DNA from: Eledone cirrhosa
Taxonomy: Eukaryota
Length of the DNA stretch: 64,000 nt
NCBI GenBank assembly: GCA_964016885.1
Contig: OZ024753.1
Location: forward strand, 10,292,001-10,356,000
Reading direction: 5' to 3'
Shown: positions 25,090 through 53,282 of the stretch, piece after piece
Layout: the number at the start of each line of letters is the position of its first letter
How positions within the stretch are numbered: the stretch's first letter is position 1
Made by a program: the position numbers and the translations under genes
Notes under the pieces: model-generated
Database searches by the model: none
Seen by the model: the letters and a program-made list of their open reading frames with translations, nothing else
What the model was told of the DNA's origin: nothing

Positions 25090-25265
25090 AGGAAAACGTA
25101 TGACCCCGACGGCAGAGCTTAAGCCGTTTCCAGAAATAGCCGTCGAAACGGCTTGAGCTCTGCCGTCGGGGTTATACATTTTCCTATTACCCACTCTACT
25201 ACCCTAAGTATTGAGTGCTCTGGTGCATTATGGTCCATCTGGTTCCTTACCACAACTCCTTCGTT
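25090..25265 (+). mobile_element. Palindromic half-hammerhead element (family P), copy 1
   Basis: GACCCCGACGGC..GCCGTTTC / GAAACGGC..GCCGTCGGGG palindrome plus ~85-bp tail; (TA)n on both flanks. Confidence 0.8.
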
Positions 25266-25509
25266 ATATATATATAAACGATCGTCTGGAAGGAAAGAGA
25301 TATTTATTTAATTATGTCTCATATAACATAATACAACCAGCTATCCACGAAATACTGTTTAGTTAGCACCCCAAACACTAAATTGGGAATATACTTAGGT
25401 ATATCCTAATGTTTGTTAAGTGAGATGGAGTTGATCAGAGTATCGCTTAAGGCTTTCTCTGTTAATGTATTAAATGTATTAATTATATATTTATATATAT
25501 ATATATATA

Positions 25510-26051
25510 GGCATAGGTAAAATATAACGTTCGAGAAAGTGAAACTAATTTTTATGACAAGTGAATGTGTTTGTTTTTTAGTATTGTGTGTGTGATTATT
25601 TTTTCTTTTTCTTTTTTTGTGTATTGTGTGTACGGAAAATTAGACGTACCTTATCAACATCCTTATTAGACCGTATAAATAGCTGAAATACAGTTGATCA
25701 TCTCGCCAAATTTGTTGGCACCAACTCTCTGCCGCCAAAGAAATTCAGCTAAATACTAGGGGAATAAATCGTCGCTTGTCCCATGTTGTCGACGGAGCTT
25801 TTTCTTCGCACGGCTCCAAGTGTTCTCTATGAGTTGTGTGTGCACATTAAGTTGGCGAGATGATCAACTGTATTTCAGCTATTTATACGGTCTAATAAGG
25901 ATGTTGATAAGGTACGTCTAATTTTCCGTACACACAATACACAAAAAAAATAAAAATAAAAATAATCACACACGCAATACTAAAAAACATACACATTCAC
26001 TTGTCATAAAAATTAGTTTCACTTTCTCGAACGTTAAATTTTACCTATGGC
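25510..26051. mobile_element. Fold-back element with ~200-bp terminal inverted repeats, inserted in (TA)n
   Basis: CATAGGTAAAAT...CATCTCGCCAA (25512-25708) is the near-perfect reverse complement of 25851-26049. Confidence 0.85.
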
Positions 26052-26080
26052 ATATATATATATATATATATATATATATA

Positions 26081-26260
26081 ACGAAGGAACCAGGTGGACC
26101 ATAACGCACCAAAGTACTCAATACTTAGGGTAGTAGAGTGGGTAATAGGAACGAGTAGGACCCCGACGGCTGAGCTCAAGCCGTTTCGACGGCTAATTCG
26201 ACGGAGAATTAGCCGTCGAAACGGCTTGAGCTCAGCCGTCGGGGTCCTACTCGTTCCTAT
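26081..26260 (-). mobile_element. Family P palindromic element, copy 2
   Basis: ~115-bp palindrome at 26145-26260, tail on the left, (TA)n flanks. Confidence 0.85.
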
Positions 26261-26491
26261 ATATATATATATATATATGTATATCCCGGAGTAATCTTTC
26301 CTACAATGACAGAATATATTGGCTTAGCAAATGTACTATGCCGCATTTCCGTTGTTTAGTCAGACAGTGACCGGAAGTGCAACTGATCCTTTGGAGCGTC
26401 TCCAAATCTGATGGGAGAGAAGTATCTTAAAACTGGAGATCTGTTCCGAATGATTAAAATATATAGAACACTGTGGAATTTCAACTTAGAA

Positions 26492-27026
26492 CAGTGGTCT
26501 CCGACCTTTTTTATACCACGGACCGGCTTCATGTCGGACGATTTTTCCCCGGCCAGTAGCTGCACATATGTGTTATTTAAATGCATTTCCATAAAGAGAG
26601 CAATAATAATGTTTTCTTGTATAGGCACAAGGCCAGCAATTTGGGGGGAGGGAAGGTGGGTCGATTAAATCGACTCCAGTACGTTACTGGTACTTTATTT
26701 TATCGACCCCGTAAGGATGAAAAGTAAAGTTAACCTCGACGGGATTTGAACTCAGACCATAAAGGGGCGTAACTCCAGGCTGCAAAGCATGGCGTCCGAC
26801 CCTCTACCGATACTGCCAATTCCCCACCCTAAAGAGGAATTTATCAAAGGGAAGAAAAAGTGTATTGAGTATATGAATATTGAATATTTAAACAAATCTT
26901 TTAAAATTAAAATCCAATATTCAATTTATTATATAATTTTAGACAAGTTAATTATTTATTTGTGGCTTGGTAGCAAATGATCCAAGGACTGGTACCGGCC
27001 CGCGGTCCAGTGGTTGGGTACCTCTG
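26492..27026. mobile_element. hAT/Charlie (MER1-like) MITE with nested SINE-A (26607-26830, minus)
   Basis: CAGTGGTCTCCGACC...GGTTGGGTACCTCTG; 8-bp flanks ACTTAGAA/ACTTAACA. Confidence 0.7.
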
Positions 27027-27329
27027 ACTTAACAAGGACATATATAGCAAGTTCTCTAGTCCGACACTTTCAAGATCCCACTAACCTACTCACTACCCTA
27101 AAAAAACAAAGGTGCGGCCGGCACTGATTCGCGGCCCAGTGGTTGGGTACCTCTAACTTAACAAGGACATATATAGCAAGCTATCTAGTCCGACACTTTC
27201 AAGATCCCACTACCCCACTCACTGCCCTAAAAAACAAAGGTGCCTTTGGCGGGATTTGAACTTAGAGAGGAGCAAAGAGCTGGAAAAAATGTTATCCTAC
27301 ATTCTAAGACTCTGCCAATTCGCCTCTGT

Positions 27330-50054: not shown

Positions 50055-50855
50055 CCCTTCAATTCATCTTATTTCTCATTCTTTCTTCTGATAAAGGACT
50101 AGCGTCCGAAACGTTAAGATCCTCTTCCTGCTATTTCAAGCGTTATCCTAATATACGTCTTCCATATACTGTATCGATTGTGTTGTTATTTCTGTTTACC
50201 TTATACATACATATATATATATCAACGTTTACGTGGACCTCTCAAATTCGTTGGATTTTCAAATTAGATTTTCACCCTGAAACTGGATATAAACCCGGAG
50301 TTTACCTGAACATCCACCAGGAAATCTTTTCATATCACTGAAATTTTCTTTACTTCTTGCATTATTTTTGCCTTTCATCCTTACGGGGTCGATAAAATAA
50401 AGTACCAGTAATGCACTGGGTTATTGCTGGCCTTGTGCCAAAAGTAGAAACAATTATTTAAATATACCACGACTCTCTACCACCTTTCCTCTACTATAAT
50501 CTTCTTACACCACCTTCTATTCACCCGTCTATTTTTCACTCCCACCCTAGTGCCTTCAATATGCCCAATCTCAAATCTTTTCACCGCCAACTCCATTCTA
50601 TTCTCAAACGCTTCCTCCAACCTCTCCCGGCCCCCTATTTGCATCCAATCCTCCCTGCATCTCTCCAACCTCATCTTCACCAAAACACGATACAACAGTC
50701 ACAGCACATTTTTAAGTCGCTGTCCCCACCACCACCACCACGCTATTCCCCGAGGTTTCCACCTCAAGTTCCACCCCACCTCTTACACTGCTCCCACCAC
50801 TGAGCCCATCCTTACCCACTCCTTTCGCCATCTCATGTGGGCGACTATGAGCTAA
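50055..50855 (+). pseudogene. 5' end of a Penelope-like element: pLTR with hammerhead-like motif plus ORF N-terminus; nested SINE-A at 50368-50456
   Basis: TCTT-CTGATAA-AGGAC-TAGC-GTCC-GAAA-CGT-TA-AGA at 50084-50119; ORF 50550-50855 has TRYNSHSTFLSRC..IPRGFHLKF..IL..LM, like the PLE N-terminal HxxFLxxC..IPKGF motif. Confidence 0.65.
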
Positions 50856-50926
50856 ATTAGACCAGGCAGGGATTCAGATTGCTTTTCATAGACAGCTGCT
50901 CATTCGTACGTCTTTTGTAAAACCAA

Positions 50927-51222
50927 CCCTAGTGTGTTACTGGTACTTTATTTTATCGACTCCGTAAGGATGAAAGACAAAGCTAACCTCGGCGGGATTT
51001 GAACTCAGAACGTAAAGGGCTAGAACTATTCGCCACCAATAATGGTTTCTTATATAGACACAAGGCCAGCAATTTTTTTTTGGTGGGGGGGGGGGGCGAT
51101 TAAATCAACCCTAGTGTATTACTGGTGTACTTTATTTTATCGACCCCGTAAGGATGAAAGGCAAAGCTAACCCCGGCGGGGGTTTGAACTCAGAACGTAA
51201 AGGGCCAGAACTATTCGCCACC
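50927..51222 (-). mobile_element. Two tandem SINE-A-type copies
   Basis: Two cores with the same head variant. Confidence 0.85.
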
Positions 51223-51639
51223 AATAATAACAGTAGCGAACCGTAATAAGTGACATGGGGTTGATTATGACGGGATTATCGTTTACTAGAATTTTAAAGA
51301 CTATCAAAATATTAGGTATGGAGAATAAACAATGGGAATGAGATATTGGCACTTGTCAGACATGATTCTGACCTTCGTGAAAGATAAAGTATGAAGGTGT
51401 CACAGAAGAATGTCAATTTATGTTAGAGGTATTAGAAGTATAATAACTGTTTTGTATTACTTGCCATTTGTTGCTGAATTGTGGCTAATCATTGGTGGAT
51501 TACACAAATTATCTAACCAATCCACATTCTCCATGTTTTCATTATCAATTTAACATCAATTTTCCGTCAACAGATATAAATGTGAGATTTCTTTCATTTA
51601 TCAAAACAAAAGAAGCTACAATTACATGTTACAGCAGAC

Positions 51640-52470
51640 ATATATATATATATATATGTGTGTGTGTGTATGTGTGTGTTTGTGTATATGTGTGTATGTG
51701 TGTGTGTATATATGTGTGTGTGTATGTATGTGTGTTTATATATGTATATATATGTGTGTGTGTATGTGTGTGTTTGTGTATATGTGTGTATGTGTGTGTG
51801 TATATGTGTGTATATGTGTGTGTATGTATGTATGTGTGTGTGTGTATGTATGTGTGTTTATATATGTATATATATGTGTGTGTATGTGTGTGTTTGTGTA
51901 TATATGTGTGTATATGTGTGTATGTATGTATGTGTGTGTGTATGTATGTGTGTTTATATATGTATATATATGTATGTGTGTATGTGTGTGTTTGTGTATG
52001 TGTGTGTATAGATGTGTGTATATGTGTGTGTATGTATGTATGTATGTGTGTGTGTGTATGTATGTATGTGTGTTTATATATGTATATATATGTATGTGTG
52101 TATGTGTGTGTTTGTGTATATGTGTGTGTATAGATGTGTGTATATGTGTGTGTATGTATGTATGTGTGTTTATATATGTATATATATGTGTGTGTATGTG
52201 TGTGTATGTGTGTGTTTGTGTATATGTGTATATGTGTGTGTATATATGTGTGTGTATATGTGTGTGTATGTATGTATGTATGTGTTTTATGTATGTATAT
52301 ATATATATGTATGTGTGTTTATATATGTATATATATATATGTATGTGTGTTTATATATGTATATATGTATGTGTGTGTGTTTATATATGTATATGTATGT
52401 GTGTGTGTGTATATATGTGTATATGGATGTGTGTATGTATGTGTGTGTGTGTATATATATATATATATAT
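51640..52470. repeat. (TG/TA)n field
   Basis: Seen directly. Confidence 0.95.
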
Positions 52471-52745
52471 GGTGAATTGGTAGAGTGGTTAAGACGTCGA
52501 ATATAATGCTTTACGGTATTCGTCCCACCCCATTGCGCGCTCTGAGTTCAAATCCCGCCATAGTCAACTTTACCTTTCGAGGTCGATAAATAAAGTACCA
52601 GTCCAGTACTGAGTTCGATACTTCCTCTATAGAAAAAAAATCGGTTGTGTTCAGACCTGGAGAGGGTTGGGCTCTGTCAGGTTTAAAAGTGCCCTAGGCA
52701 CCCCCGTTGACGGTGCCTCTACCACTCCACAAGGGATTATGAGAT
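52470..52745 (+). mobile_element. tRNA-derived SINE family C (family-A core, different long 3' tail)
   Basis: Reverse-orientation homologue at 57181-57463. Confidence 0.8.
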
Positions 52746-52845
52746 CTTTAAGTGTATGGACAAACACACATATAAACACATCCATATATATATATATATA
52801 TATATATATATATATATATATATATATATATATATATATATATAT

Positions 52846-53282
52846 AGGAACGAGTAGGACCCCGACGGCTGAGCTCAAGCCGTCGAAACGGCTTGAGCTC
52901 AGCCGTCAGGGTCCTACTCGTTCCTATTACCCACTCTACTACCCTAAGTATTGAGAACTTAGGTGCGTTATGGTCCACCTGGTTCCTTACCACATTTCCT
53001 TCGTTATATATATATATATATATATATATATATATATATATATATATATATATATATATATATATATATAGGAATGAGTAGGACCCCGACGGCTGAGCTC
53101 AAGCCGTTTCGACGGCTAATTCTGGACTAAAAATCATTTTTAGTCCAGAATTAGCCGTCGAAACGGCTTGAGCTCAGCCGTCGGGGTCCTACTCGTTCCT
53201 ATTGCCCACTCTACTACCCTAAGTATTGAATACTTTGGTGCGTTATGGTCTATCTGGTTCCTTACCACATTTCCTTCGTTAT
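52846..53282 (+). mobile_element. Family P palindromic elements, copies 5 (52846-53005) and 6 (53070-53282), in tandem in (TA)n
   Basis: Same arms and tail as 26081-26260, with different palindrome centres. Confidence 0.85.

What the first reader, a model, noticed from the sequence alone, without database searches (positions are those of the whole stretch)
25090..53282. Six-copy palindromic family carrying only the substrate half of a hammerhead
Seen: copies at 25090, 26081, 33301, 37048, 52846 and 53070, all beside (TA)n. The arm reads ..TAGCCGTC-GAAA-CGGCT-TGAGCTC-AGCCG-TC-GGGGTCC: stem II 3' strand, GAAA, a 4-5-bp stem III with a palindromic GAGCTC loop, a GTC cleavage triplet and the stem I 3' strand. 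Where GGACCCC-CTGANGA-GACGGCTA is expected, the copies instead have the reverse complement of that arm, making a palindrome of up to ~115-130 bp. Substitutions are mirrored in both arms within a copy (GGAACGAGTAG versus GGAAAAAGTAT types), and centres differ between copies. Inference: a PLE-derived element whose ribozyme strand is overwritten by fold-back synthesis at insertion, or a hairpin retro-MITE whose arms are homogenised. The remaining half has the layout of the substrate strand of a trans (I/II-format) hammerhead. I do not recognise this as a described element.
Basis: partly seen in the sequence, partly recalled or inferred. Interest (0 to 1): 0.8.

Follow-up and report, generated by a model that had tools for sequence, protein, structure and literature searches.

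The report
Penelope stubs cut inside their hammerhead
The six DNA hairpins are real, but they are likely short head-to-head leftovers of a very abundant Penelope-like jumping gene whose copying stops inside the long arm of its predicted self-cutting RNA, so the missing half is likely lost by truncation and not the mark of a new split ribozyme.

Summary
All six copies are real. Each is an inverted arm with a fixed outer end, a variable joint, the same arm in sense, and an 82-nt tail, set in (TA)n. This is the published Penelope-like (PLE) 'inverted 5'-truncated copy plus one-sided tail'. The tail carries a bulged hairpin shared with Hydra-clade PLE ends and with other families in the window whose hammerheads are complete. 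All 12 inner ends fall in 29 nt on the 3' side of stem II. Reads and contigs show longer relatives that continue into a native, imperfect stem II 5' strand (about 53-55 nt insert), so the half-hammerhead is likely a truncation product. The view stops 2-4 letters short of where CTGANGA should be, so the core was not seen. Mirrored changes are subfamily states and private changes are not mirrored, so no homogenisation is needed. Copy D's tail-less arm holds 6 nt that its partner lacks, against fold-back. Likely mechanism: two internally primed cDNAs joined head to head. The scan has noted this architecture many times on other pieces of this genome. New member of a known kind; low interest.

The parts
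25090..25267 (+). Copy A (A/D subfamily): inverted tail-less arm 25090-25130, sense arm to 25185, tail 25186-25267; 2-nt overlap at the joint
26081..26258 (-). Copy B: tail 26081-26146 with a 13-nt deletion between CCTT repeats, sense arm 26147-26199, 5-nt insert 26200-26204 matching a CCGTC of the arm, inverted tail-less arm 26205-26258
33304..33471 (+). Copy C (third subfamily): inverted arm 33304-33348, joint 33349-33350, sense arm from 33351 with a 14-nt deletion over the GTC site, diverged tail
37049..37242 (-). Copy D (A/D subfamily): tail 37049-37128, sense arm 37129-37183, inverted tail-less arm 37184-37242 that reaches 6 nt further 5' than the sense arm; blunt joint
52846..53007 (+). 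Copy E: inverted arm 52846-52883, sense arm 52878-52925 (6-nt microhomology AGCCGT at the joint), tail 52926-53007
53070..53282 (+). Copy F (reference numbering): inverted arm 53070-53134, centre 53135, sense arm 53136-53200, tail 53201-53282
53136..53159 (+). 3' strand of the predicted long stem II; with GAAA (to 53163) it is the zone, 53135-53163, that holds all 12 inner ends
53160..53189 (+). Hammerhead blocks G and S: GAAA 53160-53163, stem III 53163-53168 with 53176-53181, palindromic loop, predicted cut after C53182, stem I 3' strand 53183-53189
   Evidence: stem III pair probabilities 0.54-0.86 in the single arm; block names from PMC10085705
53196..53202 (+). Fixed outer end of the tail-less arm (likely second reverse-transcription start site)
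   Evidence: 5 of 6 window copies; loose ends behind 53202 read (AT)n in 3582 and 3100 reads (X21, X22) and 98 and 102 contigs (X1, X2)
53209..53230 (+). Bulged tail hairpin CTC-TAC-loop-GTA-tt-GAG (GAA in copy F), also at 25194, 52934, 37120(-), 26138(-)
   Evidence: same motif by eye in Hydra-2_Amil, Hydra-2_Ajap and, with one mismatch, Hydra-1_Crog
32917..33271 (.). In-window control, another family: the tail-less arm (-) has a complete hammerhead (core at 33021) plus about 70 nt upstream; the tail-bearing arm (+) starts at 33092, just after the core, and so carries only the GAAA and cleavage halves

Best explanation
The six hairpins are stub insertions of one high-copy repeat family, likely a Hydra-type Penelope-like retroelement or its non-coding derivative, and they likely lack the CUGANGA strand only because both copied strands stop on the 3' side of an unusually long hammerhead stem II. 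Likely steps: (1) the element's endonuclease cuts both strands in a (TA)n tract (inferred; the target is shown); (2) reverse transcription starts from both DNA ends at two internal RNA sites 82 nt apart, at 53282 and 53200 (the two fixed ends are shown, priming inferred from PMC11167929); (3) both cDNAs end within 53135-53163 (shown), either because the RNA begins there (about 55%) or because the enzyme stalls in the long stem II (about 35%); (4) the two ends are joined head to head with 0-6 nt of microhomology or a short templated insert (joints shown, repair route inferred). The longer parent is predicted to carry a complete type I hammerhead with about 53-55 nt between core and GAAA. The stubs are predicted to be catalytically dead and, if read through, to form long double-stranded RNA.
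For: Architecture equals the published one: inverted 5'-truncated copy and one-sided tail (PMC8557442 passages; PMC3846280 passages); two adjacent internal RT starts bound the tail, both strands are cut and extended, and AT-rich DNA is preferred (PMC11167929 parts 1-2). Fixed tail-less end: 5 of 6 copies; thousands of reads. Tail hairpin: 9 hits in the window against 0.34 (max 2) in 100 block shuffles; 3 of the 9 are this family and most others lie behind other PLE-type ends; seen in 3 of the 5 Hydra 3' ends I could read. Longer relatives: loose ends before 53139 in X1 (82 contigs), X2 (77), X4 (7), X6 (1 contig, 90 letters) and X7 (1 contig, 95 letters; 0 differences over 53139-53188). In X1, X2, X6 and X7 the 30 letters shown open with (C)(G)GCTATTT, the complement of the arm's AAATAGC(CG), and go on with letters that are not the inverted arm; the X4 line is blurred; one search lists no joint for X6 or X7. 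The 836 and 728 reads of X21 and X22 open with G(C/T)TAGGT, which pairs with the C subfamily's ATCTAGC through one T-A to G-C change and one G.U pair that a DNA fold-back could not write. In-window control at 32917-33271 shows the same half-hammerhead arm in a family that has the core. Copy D's tail-less arm has 6 nt absent from its partner; opposite-strand joints such as 53143/53236 and 53152/53240 show very unequal arms.
Against: The CTGANGA core and the stem I 5' strand were never seen: the tool prints 30 loose letters and they stop 2-4 letters before the base of stem II. The read consensus lines have low agreement (0.47-0.59) and I assigned them to subfamilies by eye. No genome was held, so no link to an RT/GIY-YIG ORF was shown; none of 77 window frames matched an RT or GIY-YIG family. 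The tail is 82 nt, against the 30-40 nt in print, and the cut site lies 26 nt before the tail hairpin, against about 43-60 nt in the other families. Rfam finds no hammerhead anywhere in the window at gathering score, not even the complete ones. Only one of six copies (D) argues directly against fold-back, and a later deletion could explain it. No depth step or read-end pile-up at the predicted cut site. C-subfamily arms often read CTC in place of GTC, which breaks the first stem III pair. Arkhipova 2013 read junction palindromes as self-priming.
Confidence: 0.75

Rival explanations
1. Fold-back synthesis: one cDNA snaps back near stem II and copies itself, overwriting the enzyme strand.
For: Joints with microhomology (E 6 nt, A 2 nt) and a 5-nt templated insert (B); self-priming was proposed for PLE junction palindromes in PMC3846280; in A, E and F the tail-bearing arm is as long as or longer than its partner, and B and C differ by about 1 nt.
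Against: D's tail-less arm has 6 nt the partner lacks. Fold-back gives no reason to stop at one fixed site 82 nt from the end, while a second RT start does. A snap-back on the native stem II would keep the native loop and imperfect 5' strand, which none of the six copies has.
Confidence: 0.1
2. The parent has no catalytic core: the GAAA/stem III/GTC motif is a dead relic or a chance look-alike within a long structural hairpin of a PLE end.
For: No CTGANGA in the stubs or in the roughly 50 nt seen upstream of GAAA; the motif arises in 1.4% of shuffles; a rival hairpin AGCCGT-CGAA-ACGGCT competes (probability about 0.14 in F; it is the lowest-energy fold in A and E); Naiad PLEs proliferate without canonical hammerheads.
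Against: The native stem II strand is placed so that it would close right at GAAA, as a type I hammerhead needs; other window families with the same tail hairpin have complete cores; Hydra elements are reported to carry hammerheads throughout.
Confidence: 0.1
3. A hairpin MITE or other DNA element that moves as a palindrome, with arms kept alike by gene conversion.
For: High copy number, (TA)n target, near-perfect arms in B and F; a true long-TIR element lies next to B (25511-26052).
Against: The inverted repeat is not terminal (82-nt tail outside it); six different joints in six copies; private changes are not mirrored (A 3, C at least 2 plus a deletion, D 1, E 1, F 1, B 0).
Confidence: 0.02
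4. The half-hammerhead is selected as the substrate of a trans (I/II-format) ribozyme supplied by the parent.
For: Blocks G and S are kept in 10 of 11 arms; all inner ends spare GAAA except E's inverted arm; PLE hammerheads are thought to act as dimers (PMC4209133 passages).
Against: Whole insertions bury the site in one long hairpin; truncation alone explains the pattern, as the control family shows; no ends pile up at the cut site; hammerhead mutants did not affect insertion in vitro.
Confidence: 0.03

Closest known systems
EN+ Penelope-like element insertions with inverted 5'-truncated copy and one-sided tail (Craig et al. 2021, PMC8557442; Arkhipova et al. 2013, PMC3846280)
   Same: Head-to-head arms, tail on one side only, variable 5' truncation, microsatellite target, palindromic junctions.
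   Different: No ORF and no direct-repeat pLTR in these copies; total length 160-215 bp; tail 82 nt rather than 30-40; inner ends confined to 29 nt.
Hydra clade of C-terminal EN+ PLEs (PMC8557442 section 11, Files S1, S2, S7), e.g. Hydra-2_Amil, Hydra-2_Ajap, Hydra-1_Obim
   Same: (TA)n target; CGAA-A...T-H hammerhead half near the end; bulged hairpin CTC-NNN-loop-NNN-NN-GAG-YRCT behind it.
   Different: Protein motifs untested; stem III of 5-6 bp with a 7-nt loop and a predicted 53-55-nt stem II are longer than in File S2; none of four 11-13-letter motifs of this family occurs in the supplement (line breaks could hide one).
Poseidon PAc of Anolis carolinensis (Frangieh et al. 2024, PMC11167929)
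   Same: Two internal RT start sites that bound the tail, both strands cut and extended, AT-rich target, hammerhead upstream of the starts.
   Different: Different clade; PAc's ORF starts in stem II, which was not shown here; the paper does not explain inverted stubs.
Metazoan non-LTR retrozymes (PMC7229834; bioRxiv 10.64898/2026.07.22.740005)
   Same: Short, non-coding, type I hammerhead-related, PLE-derived, high copy.
   Different: Defined as tandem units with complete hammerheads; the six copies are inverted, single and lack the core.

Membership tests
EN+ PLE insertion | Inverted 5'-truncated copy head to head with the main copy | tested here: met
   6 of 6 copies
EN+ PLE insertion | Tail on one end only | tested here: met
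   6 of 6 copies; 82 nt rather than 30-40; fixed tail-less end in reads
EN+ PLE insertion | ORF with RT and GIY-YIG endonuclease linked to the end | not testable with these tools
   No genome held; 0 of 77 window frames hit an RT or GIY-YIG family
EN+ PLE insertion | Partial-tandem direct repeats (pLTR) | tested here: inconclusive
   None in the six copies; no go-back joint among the 15 of 24 joints shown
Hydra clade | RWK and DKT motifs, CxCX5C linker, C-terminal EN without CCHH | not testable with these tools
   No protein available; features from PMC8557442 section 11
Hydra clade | Insertion into (TA)n | tested here: met
   6 of 6 copies; shared with Naiad, so not diagnostic alone
Hydra clade | Canonical hammerhead near the 3' end | tested here: inconclusive
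   Blocks G and S and a native stem II seen; core not seen
Type I hammerhead | CUGANGA between stems I and II | tested here: inconclusive
   Absent from the stubs; its predicted place in long copies lies just outside the 30 letters printed
Type I hammerhead | GAAA with C11.1, stem III and NUH site | tested here: met
   GAAAC in 11 of 11 arms, GTC in 10 of 11; 0.6-1.4% in shuffles
Type I hammerhead | Native stem II | tested here: met
   Complementary but imperfect 5' strand in longer relatives of two subfamilies; read by eye from loose ends
Type I hammerhead | Native stem I 5' strand | tested here: inconclusive
   Supplied only by the inverted arm in the stubs; out of view in long copies
Type I hammerhead | Self-cleavage | not testable with these tools
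   Needs an assay
Type II or type-SGC hammerhead | CUGANGA block downstream of GAAA | tested here: not met
   None between GAAA and the element end in any copy; sequence beyond the tail in the parent was not seen; definition from PMC10085705 section 13
MITE / TIR DNA transposon | Inverted repeats at both termini and a constant interior | tested here: not met
   82-nt tail outside the repeat; six different joints
MITE / TIR DNA transposon | Target-site duplication | tested here: inconclusive
   Cannot be read inside (TA)n
Non-LTR retrozyme | Tandem units each with a complete type I hammerhead | tested here: not met
   Not in the six copies; a tandem parent elsewhere in the genome could not be tested

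The most novel reading that the evidence does not exclude
The element's RNA starts inside stem II, so its front end carries only the GAAA and cleavage halves, and the enzyme strand from the complete hammerhead at the far end of the same RNA (or of a second RNA) swaps in to cut it: a natural split hammerhead that acts only across the ends of a full-length transcript, with the stubs marking the RNA's start.
Probability: 0.07. Interest if true: 0.65.

Novelty: new member of a known kind. Interest (0 to 1): 0.25.

Why it matters
As read here it matters little by itself: one more family with the known PLE end structure. Its use is as a test bed. How PLEs make inverted ends and tails is stated as open in PMC8557442, and a family with very many stubs, two fixed outer ends and inner ends packed into 29 nt lets two-site priming, fold-back, RNA start and enzyme stalling be told apart by counting joints. 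It also warns that stems read off a palindrome are no evidence of a ribozyme, and that a stem II of more than 50 nt lies far outside the 7-17-nt spacer used in that paper's core-only search.

Tried and rejected
Whole-genome search: no genome held. Exact-motif scans found nothing in metagenome, prokaryote genome (23, 60) or viral (24, 61) contigs, as expected for an animal repeat; uninformative. No copy of the upstream sequence in the window (6 matches at up to 3 mismatches against 2.0 expected, none beside a copy). Rfam: at E-value up to 1 the 150 of 307 rows shown were mostly microRNA-type models on microsatellites and hairpins, with no hammerhead family among them; nothing at gathering score. 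Earlier-findings look-ups by sequence, relatives and near gave nothing. The tail has an ATG at 53245 with 12 open codons and some third-position changes; it does not resemble the Hydra protein starts seen, and copy C breaks it, so I did not use it. The idea that the upstream loose end is a tandem copy of the arm was dropped: it does not hold for the C subfamily and the letters pair with stem II instead. Type III and SGC readings using an upstream CGT-H were dropped for lack of a core at the required place. Naiad 'HHR_half_core' entries are a different arrangement with CTGATGA after GAAA, not this family. No RNA run was laid, so expression is untested. Paper searches found no description of this family or of a twin-priming model for PLEs; the library lacks most subscription papers and Repbase/Dfam were not available.

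
Full report
Observation. The window is (TA)n-rich animal DNA; my guess that the host is a cephalopod is recalled resemblance, not a result. In element orientation each reads: (TA)n, an inverted arm, a joint, the same arm in sense, an 82-nt tail, then TA or ATAC repeats. 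I number positions on copy F. The sense arm holds GAAA (53160-53163), a 5-6-bp stem III with a palindromic loop, GTC (53180-53182) and GGGGTCC. GAAAC is in all 11 arms that reach it and GTC in 10 of the 11 that cover it; the combination appears in 0.6% (one strand) or 1.4% (either strand) of 20,000 shuffles. No copy has CTGANGA. Stems I and II within a copy are no evidence, because any inverted repeat provides them.

Ends. The outer end of the tail-less arm is at 53200 in 5 of 6 copies (C stops near 53190). Laid reads agree: loose ends behind 53202 are (AT)n in 3582 and 3100 reads of X21 and X22 and in 98 and 102 contigs of X1 and X2. The family is very abundant: 15,278 and 16,951 contigs and 23,207 and 23,878 reads lie on 147 bases; this is not a copy number. 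The inner ends, read, are for the tail-bearing arms A 53144-46, B 53148, C 53146, D 53148, E 53153, F 53135-36, and for the tail-less arms A 53160, B 53147, C 53145, D 53142, E 53163, F 53136. All 12 lie in 29 nt. Joints show 2 and 6 nt of microhomology (A, E), a 5-nt insert matching the arm (B), 1-2 extra letters (C, F) or a blunt join (D).

Mirrored changes. A and D share one set of states, B, E and F another, C a third. These states are common in reads (for example 53151 T>A, 53176 A>T, 53189 C>A, 53156 C>T, 53169 T>G, which shows 40 of 78 variable places). Copy-private differences sit in one arm only: A 3, C at least 2 plus a 14-nt deletion, D a 2-G insertion, E 1, F 1, B 0. Both arms came from the same subfamily template, and nothing calls for homogenisation.

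What it is. The layout is the published PLE one: an inverted 5'-truncated copy next to the main copy and a tail on one side (PMC8557442, passages; PMC3846280, passages). In vitro, a Poseidon PLE cuts and extends both strands of AT-rich DNA and starts at two internal RNA sites that bound the tail (PMC11167929, parts 1-2 of 4). The tail has it: CTC-TAC-loop-GTA-tt-GAG-YRCT, intact in A, B and D, one letter off in E and F. My pattern finds 9 such hairpins in the window against 0.34 in 100 block shuffles (the pattern was written after seeing the motif). By eye it is in 3 of the 5 Hydra 3' ends I could read in the supplement of PMC8557442 (parts 1, 2, 24 and 53 of 59, plus searches). Three other families in the window have the same hairpin 3-8 nt behind their tail-less end and head-to-head arms; two have a full CTGATGA hammerhead and one a CTGACGG variant. 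One of them, at 32917-33271, is a direct control: its tail-less arm has the whole hammerhead and about 70 nt more, while its tail-bearing arm starts just after the core and so carries only the substrate half.

Where the missing strand is. No genome is held, so I laid eight runs on the arm and tail. Loose ends before 53139 occur in 82 and 77 contigs (X1, X2), 836 and 728 reads (X21, X22), 7 contigs (X4) and single contigs of X6 (90 letters) and X7 (95 letters, no difference over 53139-53188). In X1, X2, X6 and X7 the 30 letters shown open with (C)(G)GCTATTT, which pairs with the arm's AAATAGC(CG), and continue with an imperfect inner stem; the X4 line is blurred and X5 lists no loose end at that place. 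For X6 and X7 no opposite-strand joint is listed, so the loose part is not the inverted arm. The X21 and X22 lines open with G(C/T)TAGGT, which pairs with the C subfamily's ATCTAGC through one T-A to G-C change and one G.U pair. A copied DNA arm would be a perfect complement, as it is in copies C and D apart from one mismatch, so this looks like a native RNA stem. It puts about 53-55 nt between the predicted core and GAAA. The printed letters stop 2-4 positions before the base of this stem, so CTGANGA and the stem I strand are predicted, not seen. Agreement in the multi-read lines is only 0.47-0.59, reduced-representation reads over-weight a few loci, and X6 and X7 carry other organism codes and low depth.

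Mechanism. Most likely two cDNAs are primed from the two ends of a break in (TA)n, at 53282 and 53200, both end on the 3' side of stem II, and are joined head to head. For it: the fixed second end; copy D, whose tail-less arm has 6 nt the partner lacks; and very unequal opposite-strand joints such as 53143/53236 and 53152/53240 (15 of 24 joints shown, which arm bears the tail not given). Why both stop there is open. An RNA start inside stem II (idea taken from e1-9550100) or stalling in the long stem both fit. There is no pile-up at the predicted cut after 53182 in the window (0 of 12 ends) or in reads; the pile-ups at 53149 and 53139 fall at AATT and are likely restriction cuts. Whole insertions fold into one long hairpin of -66 to -145 kcal/mol, so read-through RNA would bury the site, which argues against a working trans substrate.

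Against my reading. The core was not seen; no ORF link (0 of 77 frames with an RT or GIY-YIG hit); tail and spacing differ from published Hydra ends; Rfam is silent; one copy carries the case against fold-back; C-subfamily arms often break the first stem III pair; PMC3846280 favoured self-priming.

Comparison and novelty. It works like an EN+ PLE insertion and most resembles Hydra-clade ends, but clade membership is untested without a protein. It fails the tests for a MITE, for a tandem retrozyme (PMC7229834, passages; bioRxiv 10.64898/2026.07.22.740005, parts 1-2 of 5 and passages, supplements not available) and, within the stub, for type II or SGC hammerheads (PMC10085705, abstract and section 13). 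Palindromic loop 3, G10.1-C11.1 and opposite-strand hammerhead pairs are known PLE traits (PMC4209133, passages). Six paper searches found no account of this family. The scan has recorded the same architecture, long stem II hammerheads and turning points in stem II many times on other pieces of this genome; these are unchecked notes, not support, and I could not tell whether any concerns this very family. Verdict: a new member of a known kind, interest 0.25. The boldest reading left open is a split hammerhead completed across the two ends of the RNA (7%).

Noticed in passing
window 25511-26052: A 540-bp element in (TA)n with near-perfect terminal inverted repeats of about 205 bp and a 130-bp interior, no CTGANGA on either strand; MITE-like; shares a TA tract with copy B.
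   Followed up: partly
window 31412-31700; relatives at 24961, 32367, 56122 (cores), 21113, 55950(-), 1168(-) (tail hairpins): Another PLE-type family with a complete minimal hammerhead (about 29-nt stem II, TA-palindrome stem III); at 31412 the tail-less arm stops inside the CTGATGA core.
   Followed up: partly
window 32917-33271 and 36690-36970: Family with a complete hammerhead and a 36-nt stem II; the first copy is two-armed and very asymmetric, the second a single tail-less arm; each shares a TA tract with a copy of the finding's family (C, D).
   Followed up: yes
window 62290-62555: Two-armed element with the tail hairpin whose core reads CTGACGG (position 9 G instead of A) in both arms, with a Hydra-like stem III.
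   Followed up: partly
window 62890-63120: Compact canonical hammerhead on the minus strand (core at 62997) with a tail-type hairpin on the plus strand at 63052.
   Followed up: no
window 25090, 26081, 33304, 37049, 52846-53282: Every copy shares its (TA)n tract with another insertion (four with other families, E and F with each other): the tracts act as insertion hot spots.
   Followed up: no
window 53245-53280: ATG and 12 open codons at the end of the tail, with several third-position changes among copies; not like Hydra protein starts; unexplained.
   Followed up: partly
window 53588-54115 (-): A 175-codon open frame that recalls the C-terminal end of an RTE-type LINE (recalled; no Pfam hit).
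   Followed up: partly
window 39200-39790: 31-bp tandem repeat in which every unit holds CTGATGATGA but no GAAA partner.
   Followed up: no
window 7430-9900: 46-bp tandem repeat whose unit holds a 26-bp palindrome.
   Followed up: no
window 40700-41050 (-): Two CTGATGA motifs 117 bp apart within a direct repeat, each shortly after a GAAAC; order as in the Naiad half-core or scrambled hammerheads; not examined.
   Followed up: no
PMC8557442 supplement, Naiad_Obim and Naiad_Ovul 3' ends: GAAA precedes CTGATGA by about 25 nt ('HHR_half_core' for Ovul), an order that earlier scan notes read as type-SGC hammerheads.
   Followed up: partly
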